DNA of 64,000 nt from Alphaproteobacteria bacterium (GCA_964291265.2 OZ219747.1:3168001-3232000), one strand, 5' to 3'. Shown: positions 53,642-61,773, counted from the first letter of the stretch. Made by a program: numbers and translations. Notes: a model not told the origin generated them from the letters alone.

Positions 53642-54754
53642 TTAAAGGCCGGCGAAACGCTCGAGGTGCCAGTCGATGTCGCCAAACTGGCGATGGATGA
53701 CGCTCAGTCGCTTGAAGTGGTGGCCGGCTTCGTAATCCCGGGTCATGGCGATGCCGCCGTGAAGCTGCACCGCTTCCTGTCCGACAAGGCGTCCGGCCTT
53801 GTCGCACTGCACTTTCATGGCCGATACCGACCTTTGGCGCTCGGCAGCGTCGGTGGCGTCGACATCACCCATGTAGACGGTTGTCATCGAGCGCGACTCC
53901 TCGAGCGCCACGAACATGTCCACCATGCGATGTTGCAGGACCTGGAACCTGCCGATCGGCTGGCCGAATTGTTCGCGGGTCTTCGAGTACTCAACCGTGA
54001 GATCATTGAGGCGGGACATGAGGCCAAGCGACTCGGCACAGACCGCGGCGGCGGCCCGGTCAACGACCTCGGACACCACGCCATGGGCTTCGCCCGCGGT
54101 GCCGAGCAGACGCGCGGGAGCGTCGTTGAAATCGATCTCCGCGGCTCGCCTGCTGTCATTGGTCGGATAGGTGCGCCTTGAAACACCATCGCCGTCACTG
54201 TCCACTAGGAAGAGTGAAAGACCATTGCGTTCCTGCACCATGCCTGACGTTCTGGCCGTGACAACGAGGGAGTCGGCGGTATCGCCGTTGAGGACCAGGC
54301 TCTTGCGGCCGTTGAGGATCCAGTTGTTCCCCGATCGCGTGGCTCGGGTGGTCACGTGGTCGATGCGATAGCGTGATCGCGGTTCGGTGAAGGCGAAGGA
54401 GAGCAGATGCTCACCTGCGGTGACCCGGGCAATGATCTCCGCGCCCGCGTCCCCGCCATCGGCGATGGCGATGGCCTTCGCCGCCATCACGATGCTGGGA
54501 AGGAACGGTTCGACCACGAGACCGCGTCCCAGGCCCTCCATGACGATGGCGACATCCCTGGCACTGCCAAACTCGGCTTCCAGACCGACGCCGAGCCATC
54601 CGAGTTCGGCGAACTCCTTCCACAGCGAGCGGCTGAATCCCTCATCTTCGGCGACCGATGCGCGGTGACGTTCGAAGCTGTACTCGCGTTCGACAAAGCG
54701 ATCGACACTGTCGCGCAGCAGCTGCTGCCCCTCGTTGAGTTCCAGGTTCAGCAT
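53642..54754 (-). CDS. Acyl-CoA dehydrogenase, PimD-like (small) subunit
   Basis: FAELGWLG, REQFGQPIGRFQVLQHR, VQLHGGIAMT. Confidence 0.9.
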   Translation of the reverse strand: MLNLELNEGQQLLRDSVDRFVEREYSFERHRASVAEDEGFSRSLWKEFAELGWLGVGLEAEFGSARDVAIVMEGLGRGLVVEPFLPSIVMAAKAIAIADGGDAGAEIIARVTAGEHLLSFAFTEPRSRYRIDHVTTRATRSGNNWILNGRKSLVLNGDTADSLVVTARTSGMVQERNGLSLFLVDSDGDGVSRRTYPTNDSRRAAEIDFNDAPARLLGTAGEAHGVVSEVVDRAAAAVCAESLGLMSRLNDLTVEYSKTREQFGQPIGRFQVLQHRMVDMFVALEESRSMTTVYMGDVDATDAAERQRSVSAMKVQCDKAGRLVGQEAVQLHGGIAMTRDYEAGHHFKRLSVIHRQFGDIDWHLERFAGL

Positions 54755-54959
54755 TAGACCGTAGTTCCAGTTACATTCAGGCGTATTATTTTGTTTGTCT
54801 TGACGTTCGAGAGAATCGAGTCAGTCGCTACCGGGAACGCTGCATGGTGAGCGTTCGGGGATCACCCGAGGACATCGGAGCACCGCTGTGTCTCCTGGCG
54901 ATCAGCGTTCCGATCATTCAACGAAATTCCGATCAATCGAACACGCCTTGTCACGGGTA

Positions 54960-60590: not shown

Positions 60591-60591
60591 T

Positions 60592-61773
60592 CTAGAGACC
60601 CAGGACGTGCTTGGCGATGATGTTCTTCTGGATCTCGTTGGACCCGCCGTAGATCGTCACCTTGCGGGTATTGAAGTAGTCGGGTGCAACAGGTGCTGCA
60701 TAGTCAGGACCCAGCGGTTCCTCGTTCCAGCCCTCCTCGAGGGCCCCTGGAGCATAGGGCAGCACGTAGGGGCCTGCAGCTTCCATGGCGAGTTCGGTCA
60801 TCAACTGATCGATCTCGGTGCCGCGGATCTTGATGTAGGAGGCCTCGTTGCCCGGGTCCTTGCCGGCCGCGGTGGACGACAGCAATCTCAGCATCGTCGA
60901 TTCGAGCGTCATGATCTGGATCTCGGCATCCGCCATCCTCATCCTGAATCCCGGATCAGCGTCGATGCCCTGATCCCCTGCCATGTGACGCAGGCGTTTC
61001 ATCTGCCGCTTGGCCTGGGGAATGCCGGCCATGTTGAAGCGCTCGTAGCCGAGAAGAAACTTGGCATAGGTCCAGCCCCGGTTCTCCTCGCCAATTCGGT
61101 TGGCGGCAGGTACGAGGACGTCATCGAAGACCACCTGATTCACCTCGTGGCCGCCTTCCATGGTGATGATCGGGTGAACCGTGATCCCGGCAGACGTCAT
61201 GTCGACAAGGAGGAACGTGATCCCCTCCTGCTTCTTGCCTTGGTTCGAGGTGCGCACCAGGAGAAAGATCCAGTCGGCATGGTGTGCCATTGTCGTCCAG
61301 GTCTTGGTGCCGTTGACAATGTAGTGATCGCCGTCAAGACGGGCCGCCGTCTTCAGGCTGGCGAGATCCGATCCGGAATTGGGTTCGGAGTATCCCTGGG
61401 CCCACCACACATCGCCCGCCAGGATGGGAGGCAGATGCTGTTTCTGCTGTTCCCGCGTGCCGAAGGTCCAGACGACCGGGGCGACCATTTCGGGACCGAA
61501 CGGCACCGGCGGCGGACAGCAGGCCTCGCCGGTTTCCGTTTCGAAGATGAAGTGGCGAACGGGCGTCCAGTCGCAGCCGCCGTGTTCCACCGGCCAGTGG
61601 GGACAGGACCAGCCCCTGGTGGCAAGCTTGCGGTGCCAGCCGACATAGTCCTCCTTGCCGAGACCAAGCCCCCTCTCCACGCGCTCGCGTGAGCCCGGGT
61701 CGCATTCCCGCTCGATGAAGTCCCGCAGCTCCTCGCGAAAGGCCTCATCGGCGGCCGTGAACGTCATCTGCAT
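60592..61773 (-). CDS. Acyl-CoA dehydrogenase, PimC-like (large) subunit
   Basis: WAQGYSEPNSGSDLASL, NGTKTWTT, TIYGGSNEIQKNII. Confidence 0.92.
   Translation of the reverse strand: MQMTFTAADEAFREELRDFIERECDPGSRERVERGLGLGKEDYVGWHRKLATRGWSCPHWPVEHGGCDWTPVRHFIFETETGEACCPPPVPFGPEMVAPVVWTFGTREQQKQHLPPILAGDVWWAQGYSEPNSGSDLASLKTAARLDGDHYIVNGTKTWTTMAHHADWIFLLVRTSNQGKKQEGITFLLVDMTSAGITVHPIITMEGGHEVNQVVFDDVLVPAANRIGEENRGWTYAKFLLGYERFNMAGIPQAKRQMKRLRHMAGDQGIDADPGFRMRMADAEIQIMTLESTMLRLLSSTAAGKDPGNEASYIKIRGTEIDQLMTELAMEAAGPYVLPYAPGALEEGWNEEPLGPDYAAPVAPDYFNTRKVTIYGGSNEIQKNIIAKHVLGL

What the first reader, a model, noticed from the sequence alone, without database searches (positions are those of the whole stretch)
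54753..60596. RTX gene pair carried between IS1634 ends and inserted exactly at the pimC-like/pimD-like junction
Seen: 60394-60590 is a degenerate IS1634 end finishing in the exact IR ggaacttcgg, followed by tctaga, which contains the TAG stop of the upstream acyl-CoA dehydrogenase. At 54759, ccgtagttccag..tca..ttg..ttcga aligns without gaps over about 50 nt to the other IS end (ccgaagttccag..tca..ttg..ttcga) and lies 4 nt from the ATG of the partner dehydrogenase. On the minus strand the flanks are TCTAGA and TCTAAT(G), consistent with a TCTAGA duplication minus one base and an empty site CTC-TAG-ATG. Between the ends lie two RTX genes and no intact transposase. Known: PimC/PimD-type genes are normally adjacent. 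Inference: a non-autonomous, cargo-carrying IS1634 derivative moving secreted Ca-binding proteins, possibly mobilisable in trans by the intact copies at 33-37 kb.
Basis: partly seen in the sequence, partly recalled or inferred. Interest (0 to 1): 0.8.

Follow-up and report, generated by a model that had tools for sequence, protein, structure and literature searches.

The report
Stranded IS1634 relic enclosing RTX genes
A jumping gene once landed between two neighbouring fatty-acid-breakdown genes, and its decayed ends now enclose two genes for calcium-binding repeat proteins predicted to be secreted, which likely moved in later and likely can no longer jump, so this is a fossil insertion rather than a working gene carrier.

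Summary
The anatomy is real. Both ends are IS1634-derived, they bound 5,832 bp holding two intact RTX genes and only scraps of transposase, and the site is empty in 19 of 19 same-genus genomes whose junction is visible. Two near-identical sister samples keep the full duplication and a perfect inverted repeat, but their right end runs into an IS66-type end, not into the RTX genes. In this genome 6 of 6 other IS1634 pairs holding foreign DNA are later nested insertions, and most of the other 25 RTX genes lack paired IS1634 ends. Best reading (0.55): an old IS1634 insertion became a landing pad that the RTX pair entered later; it is now stranded. Co-transposition as a cassette remains possible (0.35). 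Such cassettes are known (MIC231, Tn6097), and this scan found IS1634 cargo cassettes before on other DNA. A side finding deserves more attention: 27 lineage-specific RTX genes, 7 with poly-G promoter spacers.

The parts
53642..54754 (-). pimD-like acyl-CoA dehydrogenase small subunit, 370 aa, intact
   Evidence: below the TIGR03203 cut-off. 91-92% identical to orthologues in G004/G011/G016. dN/dS about 0.14 against them.
54755..54758 (-). Downstream copy of the 6-bp target duplication, cut to TCTA by a 5-bp deletion specific to this genome
   Evidence: Empty site in relatives. X2 and X3 have the 5 letters put in behind 54754.
54759..54844 (+). IS1634 right end, type-B/MITE-385-like. IR substitution at position 4 (54762); includes the last 4-5 transposase codons
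   Evidence: Groups with a lone old right end at C2:872527 (support 83/80).
54847..54858 (+). 12-nt trace of an IS66-type terminal repeat (inferred)
   Evidence: PWM score 5.2, p about 0.06 on its own. At the matching place X2 and X3 run into a well-preserved end of that family. The family is shown IS66-type by 8-bp duplications and PF03050.
54960..57257 (-). RTX2, 765 aa, RTX repeats plus capping modules, no catalytic domain, GC3 0.64
57482..60262 (-). RTX1, 926 aa (TTG start), four RTX blocks each ending in a ~70-aa capping module. Member of the genome's RTX family; GC3 0.79
60299..60345 (.). Perfect 16-nt tandem repeat (2.9 copies) in the RTX1 leader
60391..60498 (-). 5' scrap of the IS1634 transposase (about 36 codons, frameshifted at 60444)
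60499..60590 (-). IS1634 left end, type-A-like. Exact IR at 60581-60590; 58-nt deletion at 60541/60542; decayed transposase promoter boxes (inferred)
60591..60596 (.). Upstream copy of the target duplication, TCTAGA, containing the pimC-like stop codon
   Evidence: family consensus 6-bp NYTARN
60592..61773 (-). pimC-like acyl-CoA dehydrogenase large subunit, 393 aa, intact
33432..35385 (-). Intact IS1634 copy, type A, 1954 bp, CCTAGG duplication
   Evidence: NF033559 346 bits, cut-off 100
35655..37608 (-). Second intact IS1634 copy, type A, GCTAGA duplication

Best explanation
An IS1634-family element inserted into the 7-nt stop-to-start junction of a pimC-like/pimD-like gene pair and duplicated TCTAGA; it likely decayed in place into a landing pad, the two RTX genes likely entered it afterwards, and the unit is likely immobile today. 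Steps: (1) shown - insertion into a site that is empty in relatives, with a family-typical 6-bp duplication; (2) shown - the insertion predates the split from sister samples X2/X3, and the IR substitution and 5-bp deletion came later in this genome; (3) inferred - an IS66-type element landed about 88 nt inside the right end, and deletions removed about 1.6 kb of transposase; (4) inferred - the RTX pair arrived by the same repeat- and IS-driven recombination that scatters the other RTX genes of this lineage; (5) predicted - the RTX proteins are Ca2+-binding beta-roll proteins exported by the type I secretion system encoded at C2:1810597-1813681, acting as surface or adhesion-type proteins rather than enzymes or pore-forming toxins; (6) inferred - pimD-like is still expressed, by read-through from the co-oriented RTX genes or from a weak promoter in the right end.
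For: Empty site in 19 of 19 same-genus genomes with a visible junction (18, G001; G007 and G021 at contig edges, G006 only a paralogue). Four relatives are colinear on both sides at about 89% identity. 37 of 51 paired IS1634-type elements in the genome have a perfect 6-bp duplication. X2 and X3 (flanks about 98-99% identical) have the full duplication and perfect IR, and their contigs go from the right end into an IS66-type end, not into the RTX2 spacer. The only RTX2 3' end laid in X2 differs at 27 of 181 letters and is followed by >=1003 nt of other DNA. The X2 RTX1 5' piece differs at 46 of 416 letters and has 1349 nt of other DNA upstream. 6 of 6 other IS1634 pairs that enclose foreign DNA are nested later insertions with the host element complete on both sides, and 6 truncated IS1634 pieces abut IS66-type ends. 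9 of 9 other RTX loci tested are absent from G004 and G011. Those inspected entered with a 31-bp direct repeat, a >=380-bp duplication or no IS1634 trace. 0 of 13 RTX loci of relatives carry IS1634 DNA. IR position 4 is A in 113 of 114 ends; this element is the exception. ABC transporter plus HlyD-family genes lie between two RTX genes elsewhere and are absent from G004/G011. pimD-like dN/dS is about 0.14.
Against: Unlike the six nested insertions, the RTX cassette has no ends or duplication of its own and the host transposase is mostly gone; that is also what a decayed composite transposon looks like. X2 and X3 are short metagenome contigs from one study and share derived changes, so they count as one comparison. 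On the pimC side they stop matching at 60591, so they were themselves remodelled and could have lost the cargo. The 10-15% divergence between the window's RTX pair and X2's copies is similar to the decay of the ends and would fit a duplication at the time of insertion. RTX ORFs are enriched near IS1634 pieces: 7 of 25 within 2 kb against 1.4 expected, though equally near IS66-type ends (8 of 25 against 2.4). The IS66 trace is weak on its own (p about 0.06). No expression, secretion or transposition data exist.
Confidence: 0.55

Rival explanations
1. The RTX pair was carried in at the moment of transposition, as a composite transposon (a type-A copy on the left, a type-B copy on the right, outer ends used) or a MIC-like cassette. 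The inner IS parts were later deleted, and sister strains lost the cargo; it is stranded now.
For: The layout (left end + 5' transposase scrap, cargo, 3' scrap + right end) and mixed A/B ends fit. IS1634 composite transposons with 6-bp repeats exist (Tn6097, PMC3281130 section 18). A ready substrate exists in this genome: the closest RTX1 paralogue (C2:2525830-2528520) lies between a MITE-385 and a type-B copy in direct orientation. A lone right end at C2:872527 has an IS66-type end at the same offset and groups with this one (83/80), so a nested derivative may have been copied before. X2's RTX copies are 10-15% diverged, compatible with a retained donor copy.
Against: Single hybrid elements occur (A-left/B-right in G002, L062; B-left/A-right at C2:1825220), so mixed ends do not need two copies. 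It needs two independent losses (the donor copy here, the cargo in X2/X3). There is no second copy and no example in relatives. The 2525k arrangement is explained by a duplication of the target segment.
Confidence: 0.35
2. A currently active non-autonomous element that the intact IS1634 copies can move in trans.
For: 20 full or near-full transposase copies. Two MITE families of 385 and 437 bp show that non-autonomous derivatives spread in this genome. The left IR is exact.
Against: Right IR changed at a position invariant in 113 other ends. 58-nt deletion in the left subterminal DNA that MITEs keep. Single copy. No empty allele in X1, X2 or X3 contigs (contigs drop rare variants).
Confidence: 0.07
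3. The two ends are remains of two independent IS1634 insertions on either side of an RTX island that entered the junction by another route.
For: Mixed subtypes; IS1634 copies often land in tandem at YTAR sites here.
Against: The outer flanks form one 6-bp duplication of the exact empty site, which a single transposition event gives and two independent ones would not.
Confidence: 0.03

Closest known systems
MIC231 / mobile insertion cassettes (Bacillus cereus; Chen 1999, seen only as a reference and as described in passages of PMC3913671)
   Same: Passenger genes between IS-derived inverted repeats, no transposase, target duplication.
   Different: MIC231A1 was mobilised in trans by IS231A (PMC3913671 passage). 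Here the ends are decayed, transposase scraps remain, there is one copy, and the cargo may have arrived after the IS.
Tn6097, IS1634-family composite transposon of Paracoccus ferrooxidans (PMC3281130, section 18 read)
   Same: IS1634-family ends, 6-bp direct repeats, kilobases of passenger genes.
   Different: Tn6097 has two identical, intact, convergent ISPfe2 copies and was trapped in transposition. Here there are only outer-end remnants in direct orientation and no transposase.
IS1634 family (De Palmenaer 2008, PMC2266710, passages)
   Same: 1.5-2.0 kb elements, ends C-----YT, 5-6-bp repeats. The intact copies in the window fit (1954 bp, 6 bp, NF033559 above cut-off).
   Different: The 5.8-kb unit has no transposase and is not itself an IS.
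Nested-insertion relics / fixed vestigial elements (PMC9330008, passages on transporter IS and promoter fixation)
   Same: An IS remnant fixed next to a host gene and possibly supplying promoter boxes.
   Different: No promoter activity is shown here.
Type I-secreted RTX repeat proteins (PF00353; the AlgE R-module and CyaA RTX-block comparison comes from weak fold hits)
   Same: Nonapeptide repeats, acidic C-terminal module, T1SS genes in the genome.
   Different: No protease, lipase, epimerase or pore-forming domain; below every NCBIfam RTX cut-off.

Membership tests
IS1634 family (source of the ends) | IS1634 DDE transposase in the related intact copies | tested here: met
   NF033559 346 bits against cut-off 100
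IS1634 family (source of the ends) | Terminal inverted repeats homologous to family members | tested here: met
   blastn E 1e-16 (right) and 2e-42 (left); nhmmer
IS1634 family (source of the ends) | 5-6-bp target duplication | tested here: met
   TCTAGA; complete in X2/X3, cut by a 5-bp deletion here
IS1634 family (autonomous IS) | Transposase ORF inside the element | tested here: not met
   Only about 36 frameshifted 5' codons and 4-5 3' codons
Mobile insertion cassette (MIC) | Passenger genes between IRs, no transposase | tested here: met
Mobile insertion cassette (MIC) | Cargo transposed together with the ends | tested here: inconclusive
   Sister samples lack RTX next to the right end, but may have lost it; no second copy
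Mobile insertion cassette (MIC) | Intact ends | tested here: not met
   IR position 4 changed (1 of 114 ends), 58-nt left deletion
Mobile insertion cassette (MIC) | Mobilisation in trans | not testable with these tools
   Needs a transposition assay
Composite transposon (Tn6097 type) | Two flanking IS copies, at least one with transposase | tested here: not met
   Only outer-end remnants; a decayed composite is not excluded
PimC/PimD pimeloyl-CoA dehydrogenase | TIGR03204 / TIGR03203 above cut-off | tested here: not met
   424 < 624 and 333 < 653 bits; best hits nonetheless
RTX pore-forming toxin (NF033943) | Score above cut-off and N-terminal pore-forming domain | tested here: not met
   254 and 322 bits against 1000; matches confined to repeats; PF00353 only
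T1SS-secreted RTX protein | Nonapeptide repeats | tested here: met
   14 and 21 PF00353 stretches
T1SS-secreted RTX protein | Export by the T1SS and Ca2+ binding | not testable with these tools
   ABC and HlyD-family genes exist elsewhere in the genome; export and binding are predicted only

The most novel reading that the evidence does not exclude
IS1634 ends captured and transposed the RTX pair as a cassette. This would be a preserved snapshot of how one lineage built a repertoire of 27 secreted RTX proteins, absent from its closest complete relatives, 7 of them under poly-G promoter spacers. Together these would form an IS-dispersed, phase-variable surface-protein system, with one cassette domesticated inside a catabolic operon.
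Probability: 0.25. Interest if true: 0.55.

Novelty: new member of a known kind. Interest (0 to 1): 0.33.

Why it matters
The locus is a clean, datable case of a transposon scar. The empty site, the duplication and a less decayed sister state can all be seen. It warns that genes between IS ends need not have been carried by them: in this genome the rule is later nested entry. If the cassette reading held, it would add secreted RTX proteins to the cargo moved by IS1634 ends and offer a route for the lineage-specific RTX expansion. That expansion, with its poly-G promoters, is the more interesting open question and is testable from existing reads.

Tried and rejected
Other long IR pairs as further cargo elements: 6 of 6 are nested insertions of other elements, and the 7.2-kb 'pair' is a chance pairing of a MITE and a truncated copy. 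A second RTX cassette between decayed ends: a PWM scan 4 kb either side of all 27 RTX ORFs found inward-facing ends only here and at C2:2524082-2531197, which sits in a duplicated target. An empty site with overlapping TAA-TG was rejected because it needs two extra changes and X2/X3 show the full duplication. A matching IS66-type end on the left of the cargo: not significant (best score 0.0-0.5, 42% of shuffles as good). Direct repeats linking the two cargo junctions: only two 8-nt matches. Promoter and terminator scan: 3 and 3 sites against 1.7 and 3.5 expected, no signal. Three substitutions relative to X2/X3 make an AATAAT box 30 nt upstream of the pimD-like ATG, but there is no -35 match, so this is speculation. 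Metagenome pattern scans for the junction and for the left end: 0 hits each. No RNA holder listed. Structure of the last 282 aa of RTX1 without alignment: pLDDT 62.5, no Foldseek match at E <= 0.001, best rows are RTX beta-rolls. Homologue searches gave no close relative outside the genome: best 39% over half of the RTX2 region and about 51% for the RTX1 region. 0 of 22 genus genomes matched RTX1's C-terminal part at E <= 1e-40. RNA folding of the junctions was not obtained. Literature searches listed no paper on RTX genes between IS1634 ends; the library lacks most subscription papers and I read no supplements. A notebook label of C2:1808192 as a group II intron end was wrong: it is an IS66-type MITE.

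Full report
Observation. The window is G000:C2:3168001-3232000 of a two-contig, 4.83-Mb genome. On the minus strand the order is: pimC-like gene (60592-61773), TCTAGA, IS end, RTX1 (57482-60262, 926 aa), RTX2 (54960-57257, 765 aa), IS end, TCTA, pimD-like ATG (54754). The dehydrogenases hit TIGR03204 and TIGR03203 best but below cut-off, so they are 'like' only. The RTX proteins have PF00353 and nothing else. The transposase at 33.5 kb is IS1634 (NF033559, 346 bits, cut-off 100).

The ends. The genome holds 20 full or near-full IS1634 transposases in two subtypes (A 1954 bp, B 1950 bp) and two internal-deletion MITE families (about 385 and 437 bp). 37 of 51 paired elements have a perfect 6-bp duplication of type NYTARN and 7 more match at 5 of 6. 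The left end of the finding is type-A-like: exact IR, a 58-nt subterminal deletion, then about 36 transposase codons with a 1-nt insertion at 60444. The right end at 54759 is significant (blastn E 1e-16; nhmmer E 1.3e-10) but type-B-like: 64-66 of 84 letters match type B or MITE-385, only 41-42 of 84 match the window's own copies. Its IR position 4 is T, whereas 113 of 114 ends have A. Mixed ends do not prove a composite origin, because single hybrids exist in G002 (L062) and at C2:1825220.

The empty site. Of 22 other genomes in the genus, 19 show the junction, and all 19 have the two dehydrogenase genes within about 20 nt of each other (18, G001; two lie at contig edges, one gave only a paralogue). 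Of the 10 closest, 7 read TCTAGAGACATG, 3 differ by one base and none reads CTC-TAG-ATG. G001, G004, G011 and G016 are colinear on both sides at about 89% identity. The element therefore duplicated TCTAGA, and the downstream copy later lost 5 bp.

Sister samples. Three runs of one study hold the stretch (no RNA holder listed). X1 is identical and probably the source. X2 and X3 have flanks about 98-99% identical. Both carry the missing 5 bp and a perfect IR, so the insertion is older than their split from this genome, and the deletion and IR change are recent. After 78 nt of right end, both contigs run into the end of a second, very abundant repeat family (176 motif hits). Its full copies are 2883 bp with 8-bp duplications and PF03050 transposases, i.e. 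IS66-type. The window keeps a 12-nt trace at 54847-54858 (p about 0.06 alone). X2's only RTX2 3' end is 85% identical and continues into >=1003 nt of other DNA; its RTX1 5' piece is 89% identical with 1349 nt of other DNA upstream. No empty allele was laid. Limits: these are short contigs, the interior was not seen, X2 and X3 share derived changes and count once, and on the pimC side they stop matching at 60591, so they were remodelled too and could have lost the cargo.

Context in the genome. A six-frame scan finds 27 RTX ORFs. PF00353 gives 180 matches here, none in the complete close relatives G004 and G011, and any match in 10 of 22 other genus genomes. 9 of 9 other RTX loci tested are missing from G004 and G011. 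Of those inspected, one entered cleanly, one has a 31-bp direct repeat of its target and one a >=380-bp duplication. An ABC/HlyD pair lies between two RTX genes at C2:1810597-1813681 and is also missing from those relatives. RTX ORFs lie near IS1634 pieces more than uniform chance predicts (7 of 25 within 2 kb, 1.4 expected), but also near IS66-type ends (8 of 25, 2.4 expected); the null ignores that all such DNA gathers in dispensable regions. Inward-facing IS1634 ends enclose an RTX gene at one other place, C2:2524082-2531197, around RTX1's closest paralogue, but both elements there sit in two copies of a duplicated target segment. All 6 other IS1634 pairs with foreign DNA inside are nested insertions with their own ends and an intact host, and 6 truncated IS1634 pieces abut IS66-type ends. 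14 loci were fetched around relatives' RTX genes; 13 held RTX ORFs and none held IS1634 DNA.

Mechanism. Shown: one IS1634 transposition into the junction, older than the strain split, followed by decay. Inferred (0.55): IS66-type insertion and deletions gutted the resident element, and the RTX pair entered later. Rival (0.35): the pair came in between the outer ends of a composite or cassette and the sister strains lost it. For the rival: the cassette has no ends of its own; the 10-15% divergence from X2's copies is of the same order as the decay of the ends; and a lone right end at C2:872527 has an IS66-type end at the same offset and groups with this one (83/80). Present-day mobility is unlikely (0.07). 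Both dehydrogenases remain under purifying selection (dN/dS about 0.14 and 0.08 against the closest relatives), so the second gene is probably still transcribed, by read-through or from the right end; this is untested. The RTX proteins are predicted Ca2+-binding beta-roll proteins exported by the T1SS. The model of RTX1's last 282 aa was of low confidence and gave only weak RTX-domain matches.

Comparison with what is known. IS1634 elements are 1.5-2.0 kb with 5-6-bp repeats (PMC2266710, passages). Tn6097 is an active IS1634 composite with 6-bp repeats (PMC3281130, passages and section 18). MIC231 is a transposase-less cassette moved in trans (described in passages of PMC3913671; the original paper was seen only as a reference). 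Transporter IS and fixed vestigial elements are reviewed in PMC9330008 (passages). Six searches listed no paper on RTX genes between IS1634 ends; no supplements were read. Earlier notes of this scan describe transposase-less IS1634 cassettes in three other genomes and poly-G promoter spacers elsewhere; they are unchecked leads. The finding looks like a MIC but fails 'intact ends' and is inconclusive for 'cargo moved with the ends'.

Verdict. A real, well-bounded transposon fossil and a new member of a known kind; interest 0.33. The genome-wide RTX expansion, with poly-G tracts of 8-19 G between -35-like and -10-like boxes in 7 of 27 genes, deserves its own follow-up.

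Noticed in passing
G000:C2 RTX ORFs at 163130, 244822, 546275, 586262, 1252309, 1337322, 3569649: 7 of 27 RTX genes have a G8-G19 run between a -35-like and a -10-like box, the layout of phase-variable promoters (porA comparison notes). 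Length variation was not tested.
   Followed up: partly
G000:C2 genome-wide: Lineage-specific expansion of 27 RTX ORFs, with 0 PF00353 matches in the complete close relatives G004 and G011.
   Followed up: partly
L076:10597-13681 (G000:C2:1810597-1813681): ABC transporter plus HlyD-family genes between two RTX genes, at a rearrangement breakpoint, with a decayed IS1634 left end and an IS66-type MITE at 1808133-1808304.
   Followed up: partly
G000:C2:2523650-2531702 (L087): RTX1's closest paralogue lies between a MITE-385 and an intact type-B IS1634 in direct orientation, each in one copy of a duplicated target segment: a possible composite transposon substrate.
   Followed up: partly
G000:C2:905178-905671 (L077): An IS1634-B transposase 3' fragment, lacking its last 73 nt, directly abuts the start of a 1300-aa RTX ORF whose C-terminus looks frameshifted.
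   Followed up: partly
G000:C2:872355-872527 (L093): Lone old IS1634 right end with an IS66-type end at the same offset as in the window, plus what looks like a group II intron 3' end (label recalled), at a rearrangement breakpoint.
   Followed up: partly
G000 genome-wide: Two IS1634-derived MITE families (about 385 and 437 bp) made by internal deletion, frequent tandem insertion of IS1634 copies into their own 6-bp duplication, and about 120-bp IS66-type MITEs.
   Followed up: partly
G000:C2:1745497-1767665: A 437-bp MITE split by a 21.7-kb nested insertion, still flanked by a perfect CATAAG duplication.
   Followed up: partly
window 60299-60345: Perfect 16-nt tandem repeat (2.9 copies) between the transposase scrap and the RTX1 ribosome-binding region; possible slippage site.
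   Followed up: no
L062 (G002:C1:1867448-1869376): Natural hybrid IS1634 with a type-A-like left end and a type-B-like right end, transposase split.
   Followed up: partly
window 26904-29160: Another IS-like unit with an integrase-type ORF (505 aa) and a small upstream ORF; not examined.
   Followed up: no
window 52323-53612: Beta-lactamase-fold (PF00144) serine hydrolase convergent with the pimD-like gene and conserved in relatives; probably an esterase or amidase (inference).
   Followed up: no
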